From Escherichia phage vB_Eco_SLUR29: DNA of 48,466 bases. This document shows, piece after piece, positions 5,443-43,845 of this stretch. A program made the translations under genes and the position numbers. Every line of letters begins with the position of its first letter. The first letter of the stretch is position 1. The stretch lies in the sequence record NC_054895.1; one strand, written 5' to 3'. The notes under the pieces are model-generated. The model saw only the letters and a program-made list of their open reading frames with translations. It had not been told where the DNA came from and searched no databases.

Positions 5443-5512
5443 TGTGATTTCCTCTTGATTGTTGATGTGCGCATTATAGCGGGGCCGATAACCCCGCGTT
5501 TAGCAATTCGTG

Positions 5513-7708: not shown

Positions 7709-7910
7709 TCTGTTCACTCTGTTAACGCAATCCGCCGGAAAAAGTATATATACATATGCAATCCGCCGCGCGCGCAACTATCCATATATACCCACACACA
7801 ACCACACCATAACCAACAAAAAGCACTGTAACAGTGAGAACAAAAAGAAAACATTATAGATATATATAAATAAATAATCTTTATTTTCAATGTATTATAG
7901 AGGATTTTCT
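7709..7910. repeat. non-coding module R1 (paralogous to 28996..29200)
   Basis: shared ordered blocks GTTATTTTTCT, CGCCGG, TATATACATA, ACAACCACA, AAATAAATAA with the second divergent control region. Confidence 0.5.
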
Positions 7911-8199: not shown

Positions 8200-8264
8200 C
8201 TCAGGCCACCTGATCGGGTACATTACACACATCGAAACGAACCGCACTTACTGAGGACCAAACA

Positions 8265-8586: not shown

Positions 8587-8646
8587 GCTGATCGGGATAA
8601 CCTGGTATAGTTATCCCATCGAAACGAACCGCTCAGGAGATAGTAA

Positions 8647-9891: not shown

Positions 9892-9947
9892 ACGATGCGC
9901 TGCTGATTGGTATAGTAAGCGCATCGACAACAAACGAGGATTTAAAG

Positions 9948-12090: not shown

Positions 12091-12144
12091 GCCAGGTGTA
12101 AAAACCTGGCATAATCACATCGAACAAACAAAGGAGATCTGATC

Positions 12145-14790: not shown

Positions 14791-14911
14791 GGATTTTATT
14801 CATGCTTTACTTACGCTACTTTATTCAGATATGCGCGCTTTTAGCACCACTGAACATGTTTTATGCAATGATGATGGTGTATTACTGGTTACGGTAAAGC
14901 GTATGGAATAG
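14717..14911 (+). CDS. possible overlapping small ORF (64 aa)
   Basis: GGGGAGA SD 6 nt before ATG; TAG stop is the TAG of the next 19-mer element, as for other cassette-terminal genes. Confidence 0.3.
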   Translation: MMNCSRQKLIDKILKHCAVNSISHEDFIHALLTLLYSDMRAFSTTEHVLCNDDGVLLVTVKRME

Positions 14912-14926
14912 CATTTTTTGTTAAAA
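14908..14926 (+). promoter_or_regulatory. conserved early element, copy 6 (ATAGCATTTTTTGTTAAAA), stem-loop CCCGGC/GTCGGG
   Basis: near-exact 19-mer; TATATT after hairpin; CATCGAAACGAAAC leader; inverted duplicate of copy at 18151..18169. Confidence 0.6.
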
Positions 14927-14988
14927 CGCCCGGCCTAGTGTCGGGTATATTTGTTTCATCGAAACGAAACAACCAAAAAGGAAAAATT

Positions 14989-18093: not shown

Positions 18094-18150
18094 TTTTATT
18101 TCCTCATGTTTGTTTCGTTGAAATAATTATGCCCGACACTAGGCCGGGCG

Positions 18151-18169
18151 TTTTAACAAAAAGTGCTAT
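18151..18169 (-). promoter_or_regulatory. conserved early element, minus-strand copy; inverted duplicate of copy 6
   Basis: reverse complement is ATAGCACTTTTTGTTAAAA followed by identical hairpin CGCCCGGCCTAGTGTCGGG and CATAAT; contains TAG stop of gene 18166..18405. Confidence 0.6.
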
Positions 18170-18405
18170 TTGATCGCTGAATCGTAAAATTCTTGCAGGT
18201 CTTTAGCAATTATTTCATGCCATTTTTCAAGAGGATGTTTTCTAGTTTCCTCAAAACTCATATCCAGGCAGCCGGAAAACTCCCACAAATCGCAATCAAT
18301 ATATGGCTTAACGAACGAATTTTTTTCCATACAGTCGCACACCATAGCGCGATATAAAAGAAATTCGCCATCCTCATTAAGTAAAACGCTTCTCTCTTTT
18401 TCCAT
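18166..18405 (-). CDS. hypothetical protein (80 aa, MEKERSVLL...)
   Basis: GGAG SD; immediately downstream of Dam gene. Confidence 0.45.
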   Translation of the reverse strand: MEKERSVLLNEDGEFLLYRAMVCDCMEKNSFVKPYIDCDLWEFSGCLDMSFEETRKHPLEKWHEIIAKDLQEFYDSAIK

Positions 18406-18409
18406 CGTA

Positions 18410-19135
18410 TTAACTCCGTTTGCGTGCTCGGCGTTCGGTAACAGAAGGACAAATATCGCTGATCTTAACGTATCGCGTTTTCTGCTCTTCGCCTTCTTTA
18501 AGTTTACGCATGACAAAAATCACGCTCCCCTTATTGTTGCCCTGTACAGGCTCGCCAGTCAATCCAGACACAAAGGCGATTCTTCCGGTGCGGGAATATT
18601 CCACTCCCCCCTCTTCGTAAACCTCGCCAGTGATCCAGATGATTTCAGCCGCGTTTTTCTGCGCCTCATAAAACCATGCTGTAGAGTTGTCGGATGGCAA
18701 CAAAACATCAATTTGGTTGTTGTGCTCCATTTGCTCAATTGCTTTCTTGATAAATGGAGTTGGGTTGCTGTACGGCGGGTTAAGCCATACGTGCTTGTTG
18801 CTACCCCACCAACGCTTTAAGCAGTTTGTTTCCTTGCTATAGAACTTCTCGCAAACTGCGTTTTCCTGGCTTGCTGCCGCGTCGAGATCGTATTCGCCAA
18901 ATTCTGATTCCATCCACTCCACGATCTCTTGAGGTGTGCTCCACATATCGCGCACAACGTCCGGCGTAGTGCTTCCAGCGTATCGGTTGCCGCTTACCTT
19001 ATAATATTGATTTGGCTTTACTGCCTGGTAATGGCCTCCAGTTGCAAGGGCATTCCCTATAAATGTTTCTCTCTCCAACTGCTCAAAGCTAACGAATGCG
19101 TCATGGGTGTCTTTATCTAAAATATCTTTAGCCAT
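18410..19135 (-). CDS. dam: DNA N6-adenine methyltransferase (Dam-like)
   Basis: NPPY catalytic motif (WLNPPYS); 241 aa; GGAGA SD. Confidence 0.75.
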   Translation of the reverse strand: MAKDILDKDTHDAFVSFEQLERETFIGNALATGGHYQAVKPNQYYKVSGNRYAGSTTPDVVRDMWSTPQEIVEWMESEFGEYDLDAAASQENAVCEKFYSKETNCLKRWWGSNKHVWLNPPYSNPTPFIKKAIEQMEHNNQIDVLLPSDNSTAWFYEAQKNAAEIIWITGEVYEEGGVEYSRTGRIAFVSGLTGEPVQGNNKGSVIFVMRKLKEGEEQKTRYVKISDICPSVTERRARKRS

Positions 19136-19199
19136 TTCATTTCTCCGCTATTAAAAGCTATCTCGTGTTATTGAATTATGGCGCAATCCATCGCGCCAG

Positions 19200-19218
19200 T
19201 TTTAACAAAAAGTGCTAT
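19200..19218 (-). promoter_or_regulatory. conserved early element, minus-strand copy, with stem-loop GGCGC/GCGCC
   Basis: reverse complement exact 19-mer followed by hairpin and CATAAT; contains TAG stop of 19215..19634; precedes Dam. Confidence 0.6.
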
Positions 19219-19634
19219 TTAAGCATGTATTCAATAGCCAACTTAAACTGATTAAATCCGTAGGCGACCGCAGCGAATCCTCCTAAGCTGCGAACTCGAC
19301 GCAAAAAAGCCCTTTGTTCATCGCTGACTGGTGATGCTTTACCATTGCCTGATTTATTCACTCGTTTGATCTCAATCGCTGCAAATGGGTATTTTCCGTT
19401 TAAACCAATCAGGATGATGAAATCGCTTACACCCTTAACCAAGCCGGACTGCTGATCAATCATCGCCGTTGCTTTAGACTTCTCATTCTCGTTTACCGTA
19501 TGCCACGCCAGCAAGTAAGGATGAGTATAAGTCAACCACTGAAAGCTATCTATCTGGTGATTAACTTCCTTTCTAGTGTCGGTTGGATCTCTTTCGTAAA
19601 ACTCAAGATAATCTCCTTTATCAGTTATAGCCAT
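19215..19634 (-). CDS. VRR-NUC-like PD-(D/E)xK nuclease
   Basis: 139 aa; D...E.K signature (GVSDFIIL...AIEIK); adjacent to helicase as is common for VRR-NUC. Confidence 0.55.
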   Translation of the reverse strand: MAITDKGDYLEFYERDPTDTRKEVNHQIDSFQWLTYTHPYLLAWHTVNENEKSKATAMIDQQSGLVKGVSDFIILIGLNGKYPFAAIEIKRVNKSGNGKASPVSDEQRAFLRRVRSLGGFAAVAYGFNQFKLAIEYMLK

Positions 19635-21631
19635 TAAACAAACTCCCGTTTTGCAATGTTATCCTCACCTTTGCCGTTTTTGCGATGCGTTACGCGTACA
19701 GGCGGCATGATGTGATGAGCGTATGACATTATTTTACGCGCATTTCTATAGCTCGCCACCATACCAGCAATCTTGCGATCCGGTATGTGCTGCAATGCTA
19801 TTTTTCTCCATATCGTCCTGCAAATGTTGCTTTCTGACTCAGGGAAAAATCTTTCGTATGCCTTGAACGTGTCGCCGTTGGCCTCAAGCTCATAGCAAAA
19901 AATAATTCCTTTCTGGTTTTTCGTCATATCAACGCGGAAAGATTTAACGTTGCACCAATCGTTTTTGGTGTAGTGCTTACCGCTTAACTTCTCGTTAGGA
20001 TCGACAAGAGAAATATCGCAACAACGGCATACTCTCGCCACTACGTCGTTTTTTGTTCCGCAACCGCGCTTGATTATCTTTTTCGTTCTCGGATCTACCT
20101 GGTCCTCGCAAATTCTGTAAGTCCAAAAATGCTCACATCGCTTCCCGTTATCGTCTACGTGCATACATCGGCGAGCGTAAAAGCTGTTTAGCGTTCCACA
20201 TATCGGACAAGTCTTAGGCTCTTTCCCGTTTGTAAATCTCTTTTGGAATTGCGCTTGCTCAAGGATTGGATCGAAATACAAATCACCTAACTCATCCATA
20301 GTACCTGCAAAATCCAATACAAGATGATCTTTTTTCTTGAATCCCTGATCAATGTGCCATTGCTTAAGCAGTCGCATGCCGCGCCCCAAAAGCTGGATAA
20401 GCAATGTTAGAGATCCTATCTTTCTCAGTATTACCGAAGTATCCCAAAACGGAACGTTAACGCCAGTGGTAAGCGCCTGTACCTGGAAGATGTATTTTAC
20501 TTTTCCCTCGTATGCCTCCCTCAGCCACTCTTTACGCTGATTATCTCCAGTCTTGCCAGTTATGATCCTGTATTCAACGCCTGGCGGCAGTGCGGCGGCG
20601 GCCTCCTTGCAGTGCCTTTCCCCTGCGCATGTAACTAAAACTCCGTTCCTGTCTTTGCATATCTCATGGACTTTAGCCATGATTTTCTGTGTCATTGTTG
20701 CGTCTTGATGGATCTTTTCTTCCATCTTGCGCAATGTTTTAGCGTCAAAGTCTGAAACGCCATCCTCGCTACTGGCTTCGAACTCTGAAAGGTCATAACC
20801 CAGGTCGCCTACGTCGCCGAAGTTTGTTGGCACTACCGAACCGAATTTGATTAAGTAGTTTGTGTCTATGTTAGTCACCTGCTCACGCCAGAATCCCTTT
20901 TTGTTCTTATCTTCAACCAGTATTGGAACCACGCCGCGAAATTCAGATCCAGTCATACCGAATATTCGCAATTCGTGCCCGTATGCCTCGCGACACCTGC
21001 GCATCATTTCCATGATTATTACGGTGTACTGTGTGCGTCCTGTTCCGAACATTGGATCGCCATTGGAATCAAATTGCTGTTCTTCTCCAATCAGTACTGG
21101 CAAATCCTTCTTAGTGGTCATCTGCTGGTAAGATTCATTATTTTCTATCGCGTCCGCGAGATCCTCCCAATCCACCTGGTGACATTCATCAATACCGATA
21201 ACGTGCGGAACATAATCACCTAACGACTTAAACAATCCGTTTACTACAGTGCCCTCAGAACCGACCACGATCGGAAAGTATGCGCTTTTTGTTTTCAGTC
21301 CGGCGCAATAGATTGAGTTTGGCACTCCAAGATTGCTGATCTCTTCCGAATCCTGATCAACAATTTCAGCCTGGCGAGCAAGGACCATCATTTTCAATCC
21401 CATTTTTCGGCATTGCGCCGCAACCATCGCAAACATCAATGTTTTGCCAGCCGACACAGAAGCCTTAACAAAGAAAGGATGCTCATAGTTTTTCATGCGC
21501 TTTGCGATCTCGGCATACGCAACGCACTGATAAGGATAAGGCACTATATTGCCAACCGTGAATCGCTCTTGGATGCTTTTTATTACTGCCTCGCCTAACG
21601 CTGATATTTGTTTTTCGATATTTGGAATCAT
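19634..21631 (-). CDS. SF2 DNA helicase with C-terminal Zn-finger region
   Basis: Walker A SAGKT, DECH box, multiple CxxC pairs in C-terminal third. Confidence 0.8.
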   Translation of the reverse strand: MIPNIEKQISALGEAVIKSIQERFTVGNIVPYPYQCVAYAEIAKRMKNYEHPFFVKASVSAGKTLMFAMVAAQCRKMGLKMMVLARQAEIVDQDSEEISNLGVPNSIYCAGLKTKSAYFPIVVGSEGTVVNGLFKSLGDYVPHVIGIDECHQVDWEDLADAIENNESYQQMTTKKDLPVLIGEEQQFDSNGDPMFGTGRTQYTVIIMEMMRRCREAYGHELRIFGMTGSEFRGVVPILVEDKNKKGFWREQVTNIDTNYLIKFGSVVPTNFGDVGDLGYDLSEFEASSEDGVSDFDAKTLRKMEEKIHQDATMTQKIMAKVHEICKDRNGVLVTCAGERHCKEAAAALPPGVEYRIITGKTGDNQRKEWLREAYEGKVKYIFQVQALTTGVNVPFWDTSVILRKIGSLTLLIQLLGRGMRLLKQWHIDQGFKKKDHLVLDFAGTMDELGDLYFDPILEQAQFQKRFTNGKEPKTCPICGTLNSFYARRCMHVDDNGKRCEHFWTYRICEDQVDPRTKKIIKRGCGTKNDVVARVCRCCDISLVDPNEKLSGKHYTKNDWCNVKSFRVDMTKNQKGIIFCYELEANGDTFKAYERFFPESESNICRTIWRKIALQHIPDRKIAGMVASYRNARKIMSYAHHIMPPVRVTHRKNGKGEDNIAKREFV

Positions 21632-21639
21632 CTTAAACC

Positions 21640-21668
21640 TTTAAAAAATGCCATTTGGAGTATATAAT
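21640..21668 (+). promoter_or_regulatory. putative sigma70 promoter (TTTAAA-17-TATAAT) for rightward HTH/primase/fiber block
   Basis: hexamers at 21640..21645 and 21663..21668; overlaps face-to-face with minus-strand -10 of the helicase promoter. Confidence 0.4.
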
Positions 21669-21688
21669 AGACTCATTACAATAAACTG

Positions 21689-21707
21689 TTTTAACAAAAA
21701 ATGCTAT
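21689..21707 (-). promoter_or_regulatory. conserved early element, minus-strand copy driving helicase operon
   Basis: reverse complement ATAGCATTTTTTGTTAAAA; TATTAT 22 nt after TTGTTA; about 58 nt upstream of helicase ATG. Confidence 0.55.
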
Positions 21708-21718
21708 GAGGTGACTAG

Positions 21719-22195
21719 ATGAAAGATGCACGAATTGCGGTGTCTACGGGTGAGATCGACAAGCGCACTATTAACGGTAACAACGGAACGCGACGAGGTA
21801 AAGACAAAAAGCCACGAAAACACCGAACCGGATTTCTTATCCTGCGAGATGAGGTAAAAGCAAGCCTGAAATCTCGCTTGGATATTCTGATCGAGTATTA
21901 TGGCGGTGTTCCTGCTATGGCTCGACGTCTACGCGTATCTCAGCAAGTCGTTAACCAATGGCGAAAGCGTGGTATGATTTCAGCCGCTGGAGCACAAAAG
22001 GTGCATAACGACTACAAATATAATGGATGCAAAGGATACCGCGCATCATTTTGTCGTCCAGATCTGCGGTTTGATTCTAACGGTAAGCCTCTTACTACCC
22101 GTTGCGACAAATACGAGATGTTGCGCGTAGTCAAAAATTCAGACTACGAACCAGGCGGACGATTCTACAAAGGTGATAACAGCACAAATAGCTAA
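21719..22195 (+). CDS. HTH DNA-binding protein (Cro/YdaS-like)
   Basis: HTH-like GGVPAMARRLRVSQQVVNQWRKRG; GAGG SD. Confidence 0.6.
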   Translation: MKDARIAVSTGEIDKRTINGNNGTRRGKDKKPRKHRTGFLILRDEVKASLKSRLDILIEYYGGVPAMARRLRVSQQVVNQWRKRGMISAAGAQKVHNDYKYNGCKGYRASFCRPDLRFDSNGKPLTTRCDKYEMLRVVKNSDYEPGGRFYKGDNSTNS

Positions 22196-22250
22196 TGATA
22201 AGGCTCAGCGAAATGATAATATTTGCTGGGCTTTTTTATTGAGGTTTGCC

Positions 22251-23180
22251 ATGAATACTGAAAACTTTATGACCTATCAGAAAGAAGATGTTTTGCCATA
22301 TATGAAGGGGTTATGGCGTGAAGCACTACAAAGCATTTGCGGACTGCATAGCGATGTTTTCAACAAAAAGCATCAACCTTGCCCACACTGCGGCGGTAAG
22401 GATCGTTTTAGATGGACTGATAAGCTAAATGAAGAGGGCGACGGCGGCGCGATCTGCAACGTATGCGGCAACGACACGGGGATCGGTTGGTTAATGAAAT
22501 TAACTGGCGAACCTTACAGCGAGGCCATCAACATTTTGGGCCGCTTCCTCGGAAAAGTGCCACAAGATTACAGGATCAGAGCAAACAAACGCGCTTCGCG
22601 TTCTTCTGGTTACTCGTTCGGGAAACAGGCAAGTCATGAATGTTGCGAAAAAGTGATGGCAAAAACATTAAAATTCGATCGCACACCTTTAAGCGTTTAT
22701 GAGGGGATATATCCGCCGGAAGATTGTCATTATGATTGCGGCGTCAAGGATGGTCGATACATTCACGCGCTACCTTGTCACCTGGTGCATGATGACGGGC
22801 TGGATGATGAAATGTGTAACGTGCTTTTCATTGATGAGGATGGAAAGGATTGGTTTTTAGCTCGCGACTACACGCGCGGATCTGTTGTTAAAACAGGTAG
22901 CACAGATAAGACGATCTATTTGTGCCTTGATTGGGTTGATTCTCAGCATGTTCATTTATCAACTGGTCAAGAGGTGTGGGCCTGTTTTACTCCTTCAAAT
23001 CTTGAAATGGTTGCGCATAGATATAAAGGAGAAAGAAGAATGCGCGTAGTCTGCCGGAAAGATGATCGTGATGTGATAATCGCGGCAGAGGAAAGAGGGC
23101 TTGACATAATGATGCCTGTTAACGATAATTTTAAACAGGGCGTAGAAAGAAAACTCTACAAGCCCGAATCACTGCTATAA
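22251..23180 (+). CDS. DNA primase (Zn-ribbon plus Toprim-like)
   Basis: CPHCGGKDRFRW...CNVCG zinc ribbon; start at ATG 22251 with GAGG SD rather than the upstream GTG. Confidence 0.7.
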   Translation: MNTENFMTYQKEDVLPYMKGLWREALQSICGLHSDVFNKKHQPCPHCGGKDRFRWTDKLNEEGDGGAICNVCGNDTGIGWLMKLTGEPYSEAINILGRFLGKVPQDYRIRANKRASRSSGYSFGKQASHECCEKVMAKTLKFDRTPLSVYEGIYPPEDCHYDCGVKDGRYIHALPCHLVHDDGLDDEMCNVLFIDEDGKDWFLARDYTRGSVVKTGSTDKTIYLCLDWVDSQHVHLSTGQEVWACFTPSNLEMVAHRYKGERRMRVVCRKDDRDVIIAAEERGLDIMMPVNDNFKQGVERKLYKPESLL

Positions 23181-23196
23181 AACTCCGCTAGTATTG

Positions 23197-23221
23197 CCCC
23201 GCTTATGCGGGGTTTTTTTTT
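23197..23221 (+). terminator. intrinsic terminator
   Basis: hairpin CCCCGCTTATGCGGGG followed by 9 T. Confidence 0.7.
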
Positions 23222-23250
23222 GCACTTGAAAATGCTATTATCTGCATTGT

Positions 23251-23269
23251 CATTAGCAAAAAGTGCTAT
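23251..23269 (-). promoter_or_regulatory. degenerate copy of 19-mer element (16/19), reverse orientation relative to adjacent + gene
   Basis: CATTAGCAAAAAGTGCTAT directly upstream of SD of tail fiber gene. Confidence 0.4.
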
Positions 23270-23286
23270 TTAGGAGGATTTTACAA

Positions 23287-25254
23287 ATGGCGATTTACAG
23301 ACAAGGCCAAGCGTCTATGGACGCGCAAGGTTATGTAACTGGTTACGGTACAAAATGGCGTGAGCAATTAACCTTGATTCGCCCAGGTGCAACTATTTTC
23401 TTTCTTGCTCAACCTTTGCAAGCTGCTGTGATTACGGAAGTGATTAGCGATACAAGCATTCGCGCAATTACTACTGGCGGCGCGGTAGTCCAGAAGACAA
23501 ATTACCTGATCTTGCTTCATGACTCGTTAACGGTTGACGGTCTTGCGCAAGACGTAGCGGAAACGTTGCGTTATTACCAGGGGAAGGAATCGGAGTTTGC
23601 TGGATTTATTGAGATCATCAAGGATTTTGATTGGGATAAGCTACAGAAGATCCAGGAAGACGTAAAGACAAATGCTGACGCAGCCGCAGCAAGCCAGAAG
23701 GCAGCTAAAACTAGCGAGAATAACGCAAAGACAAGCGCAACAAATGCAGAGAATAGCAAGAAAGGTGCTGATACTGCAAAGGCTGCCGCTGAATCCGCGC
23801 GTGACGCTGCAAATACCGCAAAGACTGGCGCTGAAACTGCAAGAAAAGGCGCTGAAACTGCGCGTGATGCTGCGAATGCCGCAAAGACAGGTGCTGAAAG
23901 TGCTAGAGATCAAGCGGAGGAATACGCAAAGCAGGCCGCAGAACCTTACAAAGATTTATTGCAGCCTCTGCCTGACGTGTGGATACCATTTAATGATTCC
24001 CTGGATATGATCACCGGATTCTCGCCGTCATACAAAAAGATTGTCATAGGTGATGATGAGATCACGATGCCGGGCGACAAGATTGTCAAATTTAAACGTG
24101 CATCAACTGCAACATACATTAACAAATCAGGTATTCTTACCGTTGCAGCAATTGATGAACCGCGTTTTGAAAAAGATGGATTGCTGATTGAAGGGCAGAG
24201 AACAAACAACTTCATAAATAGCAATTCACCGAACAAATGGAATAGAAACGTAAACAGACTGGACGTATCAGCTGATTCTACAGATGAATTTGGTATAACT
24301 TCCGCTAAATTCACTTATAAAGAAAGTCAAGATACTGACCCGATCACAGCAATTTCAACTGGTACATCTCGCGTAGTGGATGTTGCGAATGGTGAGTATG
24401 GAACTATCTCAATACGCGCAAGAATCGGCGAGGAATATTCTTCACCAGTTAGGTTAAGATTGCGATTCTCCAAACTCAGTCCTGATGGACAAGGAAACAT
24501 ATTTATAGCTGATGTGATGCTTGATCTTGTCACTCTTGATGTGACTGGAGGGGTTAATTTGACGTATGATGTAAAGCAAGAATCAGGTGGATGGGTACTA
24601 TTCCAGGGTACATATAGAGCAACAGAAGATATAAAGATGTATGCTCGCGTTGAGATGATAGCAAGGGCAGGCCAGGATATTACCGCAGGTCAATTTATGA
24701 CTATAGCTACCGCCCAAGTTGAAAACGGATCATCTGCTTCGTCTCTGGTTATCACTGATGGAACTCCGGCAACAAGGGCAAGCGATATGGTTACATTGCC
24801 AATAAAAAACAACCTTTACAATTTGCCTTTTACAGTGCTTGTGGAAGCTCATAAAAACTGGAGTATAACGCCAAACGCAGCGCCGCGTGTTTTTGATACA
24901 GGCGGCCATCAAACCGGAGCGGCAATTGTTCTTGCTTTTGGGTCTGCTGAGGGAGATAATGACGGATTCCCTTATTGCGGTATAGGTAACTCAAACCGAA
25001 GGGTTTACGAGAATGCGAAACTAAAAAAGATGATCATGGGAATGAGAGTAAAGAGTGATTACAATAATTGCTGTGTAAGTAATGCCAGAATATCAAGCGA
25101 AACAAAAACGGAATGGAGATACATAAGATCGACGGCTACTATAAGGATTGGCGGACAAACAAGTACAGGCGAACGCCATCTTTTCGGGCACGTTAGAAAC
25201 TTCCGTATATGGCACAAGGCGCTAACAGATCATCAATTGGGGGAAATTGTTTAA
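23287..25254 (+). CDS. tail fiber protein
   Basis: 655 aa; A/K/T-rich coiled-coil repeat region typical of phage fibers; strong SD. Confidence 0.75.
   Translation: MAIYRQGQASMDAQGYVTGYGTKWREQLTLIRPGATIFFLAQPLQAAVITEVISDTSIRAITTGGAVVQKTNYLILLHDSLTVDGLAQDVAETLRYYQGKESEFAGFIEIIKDFDWDKLQKIQEDVKTNADAAAASQKAAKTSENNAKTSATNAENSKKGADTAKAAAESARDAANTAKTGAETARKGAETARDAANAAKTGAESARDQAEEYAKQAAEPYKDLLQPLPDVWIPFNDSLDMITGFSPSYKKIVIGDDEITMPGDKIVKFKRASTATYINKSGILTVAAIDEPRFEKDGLLIEGQRTNNFINSNSPNKWNRNVNRLDVSADSTDEFGITSAKFTYKESQDTDPITAISTGTSRVVDVANGEYGTISIRARIGEEYSSPVRLRLRFSKLSPDGQGNIFIADVMLDLVTLDVTGGVNLTYDVKQESGGWVLFQGTYRATEDIKMYARVEMIARAGQDITAGQFMTIATAQVENGSSASSLVITDGTPATRASDMVTLPIKNNLYNLPFTVLVEAHKNWSITPNAAPRVFDTGGHQTGAAIVLAFGSAEGDNDGFPYCGIGNSNRRVYENAKLKKMIMGMRVKSDYNNCCVSNARISSETKTEWRYIRSTATIRIGGQTSTGERHLFGHVRNFRIWHKALTDHQLGEIV
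23690..23925 (+). repeat. imperfect tandem coding repeats inside tail fiber gene
   Basis: repeated GCGCGTGACGCTGCAAAT..GCAAAGAC..GGCGCTGAAACTGC units encoding AxxAKTxAE repeats. Confidence 0.6.
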
Positions 25255-25544: not shown

Positions 25545-26282
25545 ATGGCTACAGTAACTGTTATACCTAATGATATAACGAGGCTGAAAAATGATGTTTC
25601 AACACTAAAACAGGATGTTGCTACTATTCCTGGTGATATAACGAAGCTGAAAAGTGATGTTTCGACACTAAAACAGGATGTTGCAGGAAAAGCATCAACT
25701 ACTGATGTTGACAATAAGTTGAAGTTGTATCTAAAACAAAATGATCTATCGTCCGAGTTGGATAGCGGAAGGTATGGTGGCAATTTTTACCCCCTGACTG
25801 GTAACGAGGCATTTTATTTGTTTAGACTAAACACAACCGCTCAATCAGCAAACTTATGGCTTGATCCAAATGCTGGAGTGTCGCAAGTTTTACGCTCCAC
25901 TTCCTCTTCTCGTTATAAGCGCAGCGTAGAATCGGTTATTGATGAATATGCGGATCTGATGCTTGAAATGCGTCCTGTGTGGTATCGGTCAACCTGTGAA
26001 AGCGACCGTAAAGATTGGGGATGGTACGGACTGATTGCAGAGGAAGTTGGAGAAATTGCGCCGGAGTACGTTCACTGGCGACCGCTGCAAGAAGGAGAAG
26101 ATCCTGCCATTGCTTCAAGTAATGGCATGGTGGCGGAAGGCGTTATGTATGACCGCCTAACTGTTCCACTGATTCACCACGTTAAGAAACTGAAAGCGGA
26201 AAACGATGAGATGAGAAAAGAAATTGACGAGCTAAAAGCGGTTGTAGCGGCACTGGTAAACAAACCAACCACGTTAGACTAA
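25545..26282 (+). CDS. fiber-like protein with C-terminal intramolecular-chaperone-like domain
   Basis: N-terminal 21-aa tandem repeat; C-terminal segment ...STCESDRKDWGWYGLIAEEVGEIAPEYV resembling peptidase S74 autocleaving chaperone domains. Confidence 0.55.
   Translation: MATVTVIPNDITRLKNDVSTLKQDVATIPGDITKLKSDVSTLKQDVAGKASTTDVDNKLKLYLKQNDLSSELDSGRYGGNFYPLTGNEAFYLFRLNTTAQSANLWLDPNAGVSQVLRSTSSSRYKRSVESVIDEYADLMLEMRPVWYRSTCESDRKDWGWYGLIAEEVGEIAPEYVHWRPLQEGEDPAIASSNGMVAEGVMYDRLTVPLIHHVKKLKAENDEMRKEIDELKAVVAALVNKPTTLD
25569..25694 (+). repeat. 2 x 63-bp direct tandem repeat within CDS
   Basis: about 90% identical units encoding DITRLKNDVSTLKQDVATIPG / DITKLKSDVSTLKQDVAGKAS. Confidence 0.85.
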
Positions 26283-28995: not shown

Positions 28996-29200
28996 GTGTT
29001 ATTTTTCTTGTTCCCTTGTTCTCTCATATACGCCGGATTATATACATACACATGAATGATGGCGCATGCAGATACTCAGAAAGAAAAATCACCACAAACA
29101 ACCAAAACCACAAGAAACACAGATAACAAGAAAAAACAAATATACATACATAAATAAATAAACTATTGATTTTATATGTATATATCTATTTTATTGATTA
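28996..29200. repeat. non-coding module R2 (paralogous to 7709..7910)
   Basis: same ordered blocks as R1 (GTTATTTTTCT, CGCCGG, TATATACATA, ACAACCA, AAATAAATAA). Confidence 0.5.
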
Positions 29201-29283
29201 TTTATTGTTCTTATGTTGGCTAAAATTTGCGCTAAATTTACGCCGTCTTAAATTCGATAACACCGTAAAACAAAAAATAACAA

Positions 29284-40076: not shown

Positions 40077-40095
40077 ATAGCACTTTTTGTTAAAA
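40077..40095 (+). promoter_or_regulatory. exact 19-mer copy in plus orientation inside leftward structural operon
   Basis: ATAGCACTTTTTGTTAAAA; TAGATT 22 nt after TTGTTA; about 45 nt before terminator at 40141; its reverse complement abuts SD of G gene. Confidence 0.45.
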
Positions 40096-43826: not shown

Positions 43827-43845
43827 ATAGCACTTTTTGTTAAAC
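43827..43845 (+). promoter_or_regulatory. 19-mer copy (ATAGCACTTTTTGTTAAAC) in plus orientation inside structural operon
   Basis: 18/19 match; TATTAG 22 nt after TTGTTA. Confidence 0.4.

What the first reader, a model, noticed from the sequence alone, without database searches (positions are those of the whole stretch)
21640..21707. Face-to-face overlapping divergent promoters between helicase and HTH/primase blocks
The plus-strand -10 TATAAT (21663-21668, with TTTAAA -35 at 21640-21645) overlaps the minus-strand -10 TATTAT (21669-21664) that belongs to the helicase-directed copy of the 19-mer element. RNAP binding at one should exclude the other, giving a potential switch between replication-gene and middle/late-gene transcription. 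The first gene on the plus side encodes an HTH protein that could autoregulate.
Basis: inference. Interest (0 to 1): 0.5.

Follow-up and report, generated by a model that had tools for sequence, protein, structure and literature searches.

The report
Two-way promoter with host-activator box
The 87-bp gap between two replication genes of a T1-like coliphage holds two promoters that fire in opposite directions from one shared start signal, and the leftward one carries a near-perfect binding site for the host's MarA/SoxS/Rob stress regulators; this suggests, but does not show, that those host proteins set the balance between the two directions.

Summary
The window is a T1-like coliphage (99% identical to phage tunus, Drexlerviridae). 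TATAAT (21663-21668, + strand) and TATTAT (21669-21664, - strand) overlap with a 1-nt offset. TTTAAA lies 17 bp upstream on the + strand, and the 19-mer lies on the - strand at 21707-21689. The heptamer TATnnTA, the 19-mer and the helicase ribosome-binding site are the only invariant blocks across 12 diverged lineages (T1, TLS, KP36, JK06 and others). Among 33 copies of the 19-mer in this phage and T1, only this one has a full promoter on the opposite strand.

This is not a face-to-face arrangement. It is the known 18-bp back-to-back bidirectional promoter type, and both directions carry replication genes, so it is not a replication-versus-late switch.

The new point concerns the 19-mer, published for phage TLS as a 21-nt repeat of unknown function. 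It fits the E. coli marbox (MarA/SoxS/Rob site) at every specified position. It sits in forward orientation, centred near -40, with no -35 hexamer, which is class II geometry. No AraC-type protein is encoded by the phage. The closest analogue is E. coli PacrA/acrR, where SoxS activation in one direction represses the other through polymerase competition. Binding, start sites and competition are all untested.

The parts
19634..21631 (-). ATP-dependent helicase gene (665 aa), the first gene of the leftward unit; the VRR-NUC gene (19215..19634) follows it
   Evidence: ORF. Pfam Helicase_C, ResIII and DEAD. Annotated in phage tunus gp78/gp77.
21638..21642 (-). Helicase Shine-Dalgarno sequence (AAAGG on the - strand, CCTTT on +); it overlaps the + strand -35 hexamer by 3 nt
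   Evidence: Sequence. CCTTT is invariant in 12 lineages.
21640..21645 (+). -35 hexamer of the rightward (HTH-side) sigma-70 promoter: TTTAAA with a 17-bp spacer (alternative TTAAAA 21641-21646 with 16 bp)
   Evidence: Orthologous hexamers are TTGACT (TLS), TTGTCA (KP36), TTGAAT (T1) and TTGAGT (L006), at 16-17 bp.
21663..21669 (.). Shared palindromic heptamer TATAATA: + strand -10 TATAAT (21663-21668) and - strand -10 TATTAT (21669..21664). Positions 2 and 6 of the two hexamers base-pair with each other.
   Evidence: TATnnTA is invariant in 12 lineages. The geometry is the 18-bp bidirectional class.
21656..21657 (-). Predicted start of the helicase transcript (inferred as 7-8 nt after the -10; not mapped)
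   Evidence: Inference.
21675..21675 (+). Predicted start of the HTH transcript (an A, 7 nt after the -10; not mapped); gives a 44-nt leader
   Evidence: Inference.
21689..21707 (-). 19-mer ATAGCATTTTTTGTTAAAA, a marbox-type site. It is in forward orientation for the helicase promoter, spans about -50 to -32 (core centre about -40) and so replaces the -35. For the HTH transcript it lies at +15 to +33 in reverse orientation, directly abutting the HTH Shine-Dalgarno sequence.
   Evidence: Exact match to the published marbox search pattern gcannwwntgnnaaa. Invariant in 12 lineages.
21708..21714 (+). Shine-Dalgarno sequence GAGGTGA of the HTH gene
21719..22195 (+). Gene for a 158-aa Cro/YdaS-like HTH protein ('transcriptional regulator', tunus gp79)
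   Evidence: Pfam YdaS_toxin 1.2e-6 and P22_Cro 6.5e-4, both below the gathering cut-off. PHROG 2856, 1.6e-72. PDB Cro-like 5w8y and 3bd1. Orthologues in 828 phage records.
22251..23180 (+). DNA primase gene, downstream of the HTH gene; followed by the intrinsic terminator at 23196-23213

Best explanation
The gap between the helicase and HTH genes holds one bidirectional sigma-70 promoter of the common 18-bp type. A palindromic heptamer, TATAATA, serves as the -10 element for both directions.

The rightward promoter (TTTAAA, 17 bp, TATAAT) is an ordinary activator-independent promoter. It drives the Cro-like HTH gene and, by read-through, the primase.

The leftward promoter has no -35 hexamer (AAAACA, 3/6). 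In its place is the 19-mer, which is a consensus marbox in forward orientation centred near -40. That makes it a class II MarA/SoxS/Rob-type promoter, like the roughly 15 other promoters of this family in the genome. The activator is most likely a host protein: Rob, which is present without stress, or MarA, SoxS or RamA under stress. It would recruit polymerase in the leftward orientation.

Because the two open complexes need the same -10 DNA, strong leftward activation should lower HTH/primase transcription by polymerase competition. When the activator is scarce, the rightward promoter should dominate.

Shown here: the anatomy, its conservation, its uniqueness among the boxes, the match to the marbox, and the absence of a phage AraC-type gene. 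Inferred: the start sites, activator binding and identity, and the competition.
For: Anatomy and spacing:
- Coordinates are confirmed.
- 29 of 33 boxes in the window and T1 have an nAnnnT hexamer 18-20 nt after the box. About half have TGn before the hexamer (extended -10), and the boxes point in the direction of the downstream genes.

Marbox match:
- The published search pattern gcannwwntgnnaaa (PMC12052159) hits the window 15 times exactly, against 1.48 +/- 1.2 in shuffles. All 15 hits are 19-mer copies.
- The older consensus AYnGCACnnWnnRYYAAAY (PMC3709825) is met at all but position 19.
- Consensus positions that were not used to select the boxes (A1, Y2, C7, Y14, Y15) are satisfied in at least 30 of 33 boxes. 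Positions 8-10 and 14, which the consensus leaves free or loosely defined (n, n, W and Y), are among the most variable in the boxes (TTT, GAA, TAA or AAA at 8-10; T or C at 14).

Class II rules from the literature:
- Forward orientation, a cluster of sites near -41, overlap with the -35, and no more than 3/6 match to the -35 hexamer. All are met here.

Bidirectional geometry:
- Positions 2 and 6 of the opposed -10 hexamers pair, giving starts 18 bp apart, the commonest class in E. coli.
- The arrangement is conserved in 12-14 lineages from four subfamilies or genera.
- The opposite-strand promoter is unique among the 33 boxes.
- The HTH-side promoter was predicted independently in TLS (P57) and KP36.

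No phage-encoded activator of this type:
- No HTH_18 or AraC Pfam hit better than E = 0.0024 in 58 non-structural ORFs.
- MarA tblastn against the window gives a best E-value of 2.1.
- MarA tblastn against 50,697 phage records gives 126 hits. None is a Klebsiella phage, and none of the 25 hits listed is T1-like; the remaining Escherichia and Salmonella hits were not inspected. The HTH gene, by contrast, hits 828 records.

Hosts and analogue:
- The hosts of the family are all enterobacteria, the group that has MarA/SoxS/Rob/RamA.
- Competition is demonstrated at the marbox-activated bidirectional promoter PacrA/acrR.
Against: - I found no start-site, binding or expression data for any T1-like phage.
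- The phage boxes are far more uniform than host marboxes, and they are conserved at positions the consensus leaves free (A3 in 33/33, T11 in 32/33). Position 19 is mostly A where the consensus wants a pyrimidine. A different protein with a similar site is therefore possible.
- From general knowledge: MarA and SoxS are scarce without stress, and much of Rob is inactive in unstressed cells, yet T1 grows very well in plain broth.
- At the E. coli promoters tested, basal activity was too low for competition, and MarA (unlike SoxS) did not repress acrR. Competition at the phage promoter is therefore not guaranteed.
- The box at this promoter reads GCAT rather than GCAC in the window, L006 and KP36.
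Confidence: 0.55

Rival explanations
1. The bidirectional core is real, but the 19-mer is recognised by something other than MarA/SoxS/Rob. It could be an unidentified phage-encoded protein that is not AraC-type (possibly the Cro-like gp79 itself). Alternatively, it could act without any factor, as a bent A/T-tract or UP-like element that helps the polymerase alpha subunits at promoters with an extended -10.
For: - The boxes are much more uniform than host marboxes and are conserved at consensus-free positions.
- The TLS authors suggested an enhancer or UP-like role.
- About half of the box promoters have a TGn extended -10, which can compensate for a missing -35.
- T1 grows without stress inducers (general knowledge).
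- gp79 is conserved in the whole family, and its gene always abuts a box.
Against: - The box matches both published marbox definitions at every specified position but one, and it matches class II orientation and distance. A chance match of an unrelated site is unlikely.
- From general knowledge, UP elements lie further upstream (about -59 to -38) and have no need for an invariant GCA...TG...AAA.
- The site is asymmetric, which is unlike the operators of Cro-type dimers.
- This particular promoter has no TGn before its -10.
Confidence: 0.25
2. The HTH protein binds in the overlap region and autoregulates, flipping transcription from the replication (helicase) side to a middle/late programme on the + side, in the manner of a lambda PR/PRM switch.
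For: - gp79 has a Cro-like HTH.
- Its gene is driven by one arm of the overlapping pair.
- A 17-bp near-palindrome, GAGTATATAATAGACTC (21658-21674, 7 of 8 pairs), and the small palindrome AAATGCCATTT (21646-21656) lie in the promoter.
- In E. coli, AcrR represses both arms of PacrA/acrR.
Against: - Both sides carry replication genes, and the tail-fibre gene lies beyond a strong terminator.
- The extended palindromy is not conserved across clades. Only the -10 heptamer is.
- AAATGCCATTT is shared by clades whose HTH proteins are the most distant (52-54% identity) and is absent from closer ones (about 72%).
- No operator-like word from the gap recurs elsewhere in the genome.
Confidence: 0.1
3. 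Only one direction is a real promoter. The second -10 hexamer is a by-product of the near-palindromic -10 consensus, and the other gene is transcribed from elsewhere.
For: - Given one TAnnnT hexamer, only one extra base is needed to create TAnnnT on the other strand. Five other box promoters have this with no divergent gene.
- The generic consensus scan is not enriched.
Against: - Both genes need a promoter, and the 87-bp gap is the only non-coding DNA upstream of each.
- The scan finds no other + strand site between 21300 and 21718.
- The + strand hexamer is a perfect TATAAT in most lineages, with a -35 of up to 5/6 (TLS, KP36).
- The base private to each hexamer is invariant.
- The - strand hexamer keeps the family's fixed 18-19 nt distance from the box.
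Confidence: 0.1

Closest known systems
E. coli PacrA/acrR bidirectional promoter (Warman et al., NAR 2026, PMC12825309)
   Same: - Shared, pseudo-symmetric -10 region driving two divergent mRNAs.
- A marbox that activates one direction only and lies in the transcribed leader of the other.
- One arm encodes a small HTH regulator.
- SoxS activation of acrA represses acrR by polymerase competition, and bound SoxS is not a roadblock.
   Different: - There the marbox is upstream in a class I position (the Klebsiella acrA site is at about -71.5), and acrA keeps a functional -35. Here the box is class II and replaces the -35.
- There the regulator (AcrR) is known to repress both arms. Here the target of gp79 is unknown.
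- This one is in a virulent phage, and nothing about it has been tested.
Class II MarA/SoxS/Rob/RamA promoters (micF, lpxC P2, lpxL P1, rfaY P1)
   Same: - Asymmetric marbox in forward orientation centred near -41 and overlapping the -35.
- No recognisable -35 hexamer, with a canonical -10.
- The micF site reads CACT-7N-AAA, exactly as the phage box does.
   Different: - Host sites are degenerate single copies tied to stress genes. The phage has about 15-20 near-identical copies that drive most non-structural genes.
- Binding by the host proteins has not been shown for the phage sites.
18-bp bidirectional promoters of bacteria (Warman et al. 2020/2021)
   Same: -10 hexamers on opposite strands are offset by one base, so that positions 2 and 6 pair. 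The starts lie about 18 bp apart on either side. The type is common in intergenic and horizontally acquired DNA and is often used for mRNAs.
   Different: Nothing structural differs. Here the start sites are predicted, not mapped.
21-nt direct repeats and promoter P57 of phage TLS (Kropinski and co-workers, Phage 2024, PMC11447400)
   Same: The same element (aaATAGCACnnnTTGnTAAAA; 21 copies in TLS, also reported in T1, Rtp and Rogue1) and the orthologous HTH-side promoter (P57, ttgactaaatgccatttgcggcatatcat).
   Different: - That paper left the function of the repeat open (stoperator, enhancer site or UP-like element).
- It did not link the repeat to a -10 at fixed distance, to the marbox, or to P57 sharing its -10 with a repeat-driven promoter.
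Phage T4 middle promoters (MotA box replacing the -35) - from general knowledge
   Same: An activator box takes the place of the -35 hexamer at a fixed distance from a normal -10, and it is repeated many times in a virulent phage genome.
   Different: MotA and AsiA are phage-encoded, and the box is centred at about -30. Here no phage activator is recognisable, and the box matches the site of a host regulator.

Membership tests
Bidirectional sigma-70 promoter, 18-bp class | Opposed -10 hexamers offset so that positions 2 and 6 base-pair (shared pseudo-symmetric -10) | tested here: met
   + TATAAT 21663-21668 and - TATTAT 21669-21664. TATnnTA is invariant in 12 lineages. Definition.
Bidirectional sigma-70 promoter, 18-bp class | Divergent transcription start sites about 18 bp apart, detected experimentally | not testable with these tools
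   Starts at about 21675 (+) and 21657 (-) are predicted from the -10 positions only. I found no 5'-end data for T1-like phages.
Bidirectional sigma-70 promoter, 18-bp class | Each direction leads into a gene (mRNA production) | tested here: met
   Helicase ATG at 21631 with Shine-Dalgarno AAAGG. HTH ATG at 21719 with Shine-Dalgarno GAGGTGA.
Class II marbox (MarA/SoxS/Rob/RamA) promoter | Match to the marbox consensus (gcannwwntgnnaaa; AYnGCACnnWnnRYYAAAY) | tested here: met
   GCATTTTTTGTTAAA at 21704..21690 is an exact match to the first pattern (15 hits against 1.48 expected). Against the second pattern this copy has 2 mismatches (T at position 7, A at position 19); most other copies have 1. 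Consensus sequences.
Class II marbox (MarA/SoxS/Rob/RamA) promoter | Forward orientation, centred about -36 to -55 (cluster near -41), overlapping the -35 | tested here: met
   The box reads in the direction of helicase transcription. The core centre at 21697 is about 40 nt upstream of the predicted start. Rules. The position depends on a predicted, not a mapped, start.
Class II marbox (MarA/SoxS/Rob/RamA) promoter | No recognisable -35 hexamer (3/6 or less) together with a canonical -10 | tested here: met
   The hexamer 17 bp upstream of TATTAT is AAAACA (3/6). Rule.
Class II marbox (MarA/SoxS/Rob/RamA) promoter | Bound by MarA, SoxS or Rob, with transcription dependent on the activator | not testable with these tools
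   Needs gel-shift or footprint assays, in vitro transcription, or infection of a strain lacking rob, marA and soxS. Indirect support only: no AraC-type protein is encoded by the phage.
Face-to-face (convergent, overlapping-transcript) promoter pair | Start sites placed so that the two transcripts overlap and polymerases converge | tested here: not met
   The predicted + start (21675) lies to the right of the predicted - start (21657), and the two point apart.
Cro/CI-type operator switch (lambda PR/PRM-like) | Repeated dyad-symmetric operators overlapping the divergent promoters and bound by the adjacent HTH protein | tested here: not met
   Only two short inverted repeats (5-bp arms) and a clade-specific extension of the -10 palindrome are present. 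No repeated operator and no conservation beyond the heptamer. Binding by gp79 was not tested.
Stoperator (mycobacteriophage L5), as suggested for the TLS repeats | Asymmetric repressor sites inside transcription units that block elongation, in a phage that encodes the repressor | tested here: inconclusive
   The sites are asymmetric and co-oriented with genes. However, 29 of 33 are followed by a -10 at a fixed 18-20 nt, which indicates promoters. No repressor was identified, and T1-like phages are described as virulent.

The most novel reading that the evidence does not exclude
T1-like phages (Drexlerviridae) may have handed most of their early and middle transcription to the host's MarA/SoxS/Rob/RamA stress regulators. 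On this reading the long-unexplained 21-nt repeat is a high-affinity class II marbox.

The same boxes also lie in reverse orientation just downstream of activator-independent promoters or in the leaders of other genes: the HTH gene here, and the tail-fibre, tape-measure-chaperone and major-head genes elsewhere. There they could hold those genes down, by polymerase competition or by occlusion, while free activator is plentiful.

As phage DNA replicates, hundreds of genome copies with 16-20 boxes each would titrate the few thousand activator molecules. That would flip the bidirectional promoters and release the late genes. The result would be a replication-coupled timer that also senses host stress signals such as bile salts or oxidants.
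Probability: 0.2. Interest if true: 0.8.

Novelty: new variant of a known kind. Interest (0 to 1): 0.6.

Why it matters
T1-like phages are classic and abundant, and they are widely isolated on Klebsiella and E. coli, including as therapy candidates. Yet their promoters and their temporal programme are essentially undescribed. The one recent analysis found only three sigma-70-like promoters in TLS and left the 21-nt repeat unexplained.

If the repeat is a class II marbox, two things follow. The family's transcription map becomes readable from sequence alone. And infection becomes predictably dependent on host Rob, MarA, SoxS or RamA, the same regulators that drive multidrug resistance and that respond to bile salts, salicylate and oxidants. 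That would link phage productivity to the host's antibiotic-resistance state, which simple knockouts can test.

The helicase/HTH gap would then be a compact natural example of an activator-biased bidirectional promoter, a control principle shown so far for only a handful of E. coli promoters.

Tried and rejected
- **TTGTTA inside the 19-mer as the -35.** Rejected: it lies 22 bp from the -10 in every copy.
- **Sigma-54 promoter (TGGCAC-N5-TTGC).** Rejected by inspection: the conserved doublets are 8 nt apart, not 10, and a sigma-70 -10 follows.
- **UP element.** The T-tract and A-tract lie about 8 bp too close to the -10, and an invariant GCA/TG/AAA would not be needed (general knowledge).
- **A phage-encoded MarA-like activator.** None found. 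Pfam scan of 58 ORFs, tblastn of MarA against the window (best E = 2.1), and tblastn against 50,697 phage records (126 hits; none is a Klebsiella phage and none of the 25 listed is T1-like).
- **An operator for the HTH protein.** No word from the gap recurs in the genome, and no dyad is conserved across clades.
- **Another + strand promoter for the HTH gene.** None in 21300-21718.
- **Published start-site or expression data for T1-like phages.** None found. Three literature searches were too broad and gave nothing useful.
- **Any paper naming both the marbox and T1-like phages.** None of the listed papers contains the term 'marbox'.
- **VLCpiS13c as an outgroup** (HTH identity 42%, not Drexlerviridae). 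It has no box upstream of its HTH gene, so the box is a feature of the family, not of the HTH gene.

Full report
**Origin of the window.** The window is a T1-like siphophage. Bases 19000-24000 are 99.3% identical to Escherichia phage tunus (Drexlerviridae, Tempevirinae, Warwickvirus), and 368 phage records match this stretch. According to the tunus annotation, the finding lies in the 87-bp gap (21632-21718) between the ATP-dependent helicase gene (19634..21631, - strand, followed by a VRR-NUC gene) and a 'transcriptional regulator' gene (21719..22195, + strand). The regulator gene is followed by the DNA primase gene (22251..23180), a strong intrinsic terminator (23196-23213) and a tail-fibre gene.

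**The observation.**
- + strand: TTTAAA at 21640-21645, a 17-bp spacer, and TATAAT at 21663-21668.
- - strand: TATTAT at 21669..21664.
- - strand: the 19-mer ATAGCATTTTTTGTTAAAA at 21707..21689.

The two -10 hexamers are offset by one base, so together they form the palindromic heptamer TATAATA. A generic consensus scan finds no more promoter-like sites in this region than in shuffled sequence (10 against 11.4 +/- 3.5). The hexamers alone therefore prove nothing, and the case rests on context and conservation.

**The 19-mer family.** The window holds about 16 copies. All but one or two point in the direction of the downstream genes. Each is followed, exactly 19 nt after the 19-mer, by a -10-like hexamer (TATAGT, CATAAT, TATAAT and similar), often preceded by TGn. 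Phage T1 shows the same pattern. Taken together, 29 of 33 boxes have an nAnnnT hexamer at 18-20 nt. TTGTTA inside the 19-mer therefore sits 22 bp from the -10 and cannot be the -35. With the -10 at -12 to -7, the 19-mer spans about -50 to -32. The element is already in the literature: the 2024 re-annotation of phage TLS reports a 21-nt direct repeat, aaATAGCACnnnTTGnTAAAA, in 21 places, and says it is also present in T1, Rtp and Rogue1. That paper leaves the function open (stoperator, enhancer site or UP-like element) and finds only three sigma-70-like intergenic promoters in the genome.

**What the 19-mer is.** It fits the binding site of the E. coli MarA/SoxS/Rob activators, the marbox.
- The search pattern used by the Grainger laboratory, gcannwwntgnnaaa (PMC12052159), matches the window 15 times without mismatch, against 1.48 +/- 1.2 in shuffles. 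All 15 hits are 19-mer copies.
- The older consensus AYnGCACnnWnnRYYAAAY (quoted in PMC3709825) is met at all positions but the last.
- Consensus positions that I did not use to select the boxes (A1, Y2, C7, Y14, Y15) hold in at least 30 of 33 boxes.
- Positions 8-10 and 14, which the consensus leaves free or loosely defined (n, n, W and Y), are among the most variable in the boxes: TTT, GAA, TAA or AAA at 8-10, and T or C at 14.
- The geometry fits as well. Class II marbox promoters have the site in forward orientation, clustered near -41, overlapping the -35, and they lack a recognisable -35 hexamer. The micF class II site is at about -41 and reads CACT-7N-AAA, as the phage box does.
- At the helicase promoter the box core is centred about 40 nt upstream of the predicted start, and the hexamer in the -35 position is AAAACA (3/6).

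**Who binds it.** I looked for a phage-encoded activator of this type and found none.
- A Pfam scan of 58 non-structural ORFs gave no AraC or HTH_18 hit better than E = 0.0024.
- tblastn with MarA against the window gave a best E-value of 2.1.
- tblastn with MarA against 50,697 phage records gave 126 hits. None is a Klebsiella phage, and none of the 25 hits listed is T1-like; the other Escherichia and Salmonella hits were not inspected. The HTH gene, by contrast, hits 828 records.
- The recorded hosts of the family (Escherichia, Klebsiella, Shigella, Salmonella, Citrobacter, Enterobacter, Cronobacter) are all enterobacteria, the group that has these regulators.

The most economical reading is that a host protein binds the boxes. 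From general knowledge, Rob is abundant without stress, while MarA, SoxS and RamA are stress-induced. This is inference: binding was not and could not be tested here. The unusual uniformity of the phage boxes, including at consensus-free positions, leaves room for a different protein. In the searchable library, no paper that mentions T1-like phages also mentions the marbox.

**The opposite-strand promoter.** The HTH gene has no other upstream non-coding DNA, and the scan finds no other + strand candidate between 21300 and 21718. I compared the gap in 32 related contigs from IMG/VR and in T1, KP36 and JK06. In every Drexlerviridae lineage:
- the box abuts the Shine-Dalgarno sequence of the HTH gene;
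- the heptamer TAT(A/C)(A/C)TA lies 18-19 nt from the box;
- a -35-like hexamer lies 16-17 bp upstream of the + strand -10. Examples are TTGACT in TLS, TTGTCA in KP36, TTGAAT in T1, TTGAGT in L006 and TTTAAA here.

The + strand hexamer is a perfect TATAAT in most lineages. In a MAFFT alignment of 12 representatives (mean column identity 65%), the invariant columns are CCTTT (the complement of the helicase Shine-Dalgarno sequence), T-A-T-n-n-T-A, and the box. The first T of the heptamer belongs only to the + strand hexamer and the last A only to the - strand hexamer, and both are invariant, so both hexamers appear to be under selection. Of the 33 boxes in the window and T1, only this one and its T1 orthologue have a 6/6 opposite-strand hexamer with a usable -35. 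The TLS authors list the orthologous promoter as P57, one of their three sigma-70 promoters, and the KP36 record annotates it as a promoter. Neither source notes that it shares its -10 with a repeat-driven promoter.

**What kind of arrangement this is.** It is not face-to-face. The predicted starts (about 21675 on + and about 21657 on -) point away from each other, 18 bp apart. It is exactly the commonest class of bacterial bidirectional promoter: overlapping -10 elements in which positions 2 and 6 of the opposed hexamers base-pair. That class was found at 19% of E. coli start sites and is enriched in intergenic and horizontally acquired DNA.

Control of such promoters was studied recently (PMC12825309):
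- One polymerase excludes the other.
- Basal activity is usually too low for this to matter.
- Strong activation of one direction represses the other.

The test case in that paper is the closest analogue I know. At PacrA/acrR, SoxS bound to a marbox activates acrA and shuts off acrR by polymerase competition. Bound SoxS itself is not a roadblock, although its site lies in the acrR leader. The weaker activator MarA does not repress acrR.

In the phage the box lies at +15 to +33 of the HTH leader. It differs in being class II, so the leftward promoter should be nearly silent without the activator, while the rightward promoter should not need one.

**Mechanism proposed, with its status.**
- Shown: the anatomy; its conservation; its uniqueness among the boxes; the marbox match and class II geometry relative to the -10; the absence of a phage AraC-type gene.
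- Inferred: the start sites; that Rob, MarA or SoxS bind; that leftward activation lowers rightward transcription.

On this model the helicase/VRR-NUC unit is activator-dependent. The HTH (and primase) unit is constitutive but subject to competition.

- Both directions carry replication genes. The tail-fibre gene lies behind a strong terminator.
- Some relatives have a terminator (KP36) or a separate box promoter (L023) already between the HTH gene and the primase. The window has a degenerate box and a hairpin there. The rightward promoter therefore mainly serves the HTH gene and is not a route to late genes.
- The HTH protein is Cro/YdaS-like, but I found no operator for it. The 17-bp near-palindrome around the -10 and the small palindrome AAATGCCATTT are clade-specific, and nothing from the gap recurs elsewhere in the genome.

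**Verdict.** As a bidirectional promoter the feature belongs to a well-described kind. What raises its interest is that the repeat which defines one of its arms, and most other promoters of this phage family, looks like a host marbox in class II position. I did not find this link in the literature available to me, and simple experiments can test it.

Noticed in passing
window 23251-23269; 40077-40095; 43827-43845 (T1: L035 18832-18850 and 15068-15086; also L035 8362-8380): Copies of the box lie in reverse orientation in the leaders of late genes: directly against the Shine-Dalgarno sequence of the tail-fibre and tape-measure-chaperone genes, and upstream of the major-head gene with a terminator-like hairpin in between. 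They lie at the same places in T1. As antisense promoters they are poor or lack a -10 (TTTCAA, TAGATT, TATTAG). The tail-fibre box follows a possible extended -10, TGCTATTAT (23233-23241). T1 also has a forward box 12 nt before the terminase-small Shine-Dalgarno sequence, with no -10. These boxes might act as binding sites that hold late genes down.
   Followed up: partly
window 22179-22238: At the 3' end of the HTH gene there is a degenerate box (ACAGCACAAATAGCTAATG). GATAAT/TAATAT follows 17-19 nt later, inside a hairpin (stems 22203-22209 and 22225-22231) that is followed by six Ts, just before the primase ATG at 22251. A relative (L023) has a clean box promoter at this position, and KP36 has an annotated terminator there. 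The primase may therefore be partly uncoupled from the HTH promoter.
   Followed up: partly
window, e.g. 5460-5497 (- strand), 8587-8620, 9892-9925, 12091-12115, 18110-18150: Many box promoters are embedded in G+C-rich hairpins whose stems span the spacer and the -10 (for example gcggggttatcggccccgc, or GGGATAAC...GTTATCCC). On read-through RNA from the upstream gene these would fold, so they may be terminators or processing sites that are superimposed on the next promoter.
   Followed up: no
window 8226-8245, 8613-8632, 9918-9935, 14953-14972 and others: The transcribed leaders after box promoters share a C/A-rich motif (CATCGAAACGAAC...) that runs up to the Shine-Dalgarno sequence. In some relatives the helicase leader carries the same motif (CAAACGAAAC).
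   Followed up: no
window 14907-14968 and 18109-18170: A 62-nt inverted repeat (90% complementary) consists of two convergent copies of the same box promoter plus leader. The copies flank the block that holds the lysis genes and the exonuclease gene.
   Followed up: no
window 7837-7880 and 29121-29206: Very A/T-rich repeated stretches (ATATATATAAATAAATAA-like, in direct and inverted copies) lie at the two places where gene orientation diverges. They could be early promoters or an origin of replication.
   Followed up: no
window 23718-23903 and 25562-25684: There are in-frame tandem repeats inside the tail-fibre gene (21- and 63-nt units) and a 63-nt duplication (90% identical) at the start of the next-but-one gene.
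   Followed up: no
GenBank MG065643, MG065679 and other 'Campylobacter phage' records: About 20 records labelled as Campylobacter jejuni phages encode an HTH protein 80% identical to this one and are T1-like in this region. The host label looks doubtful.
   Followed up: no
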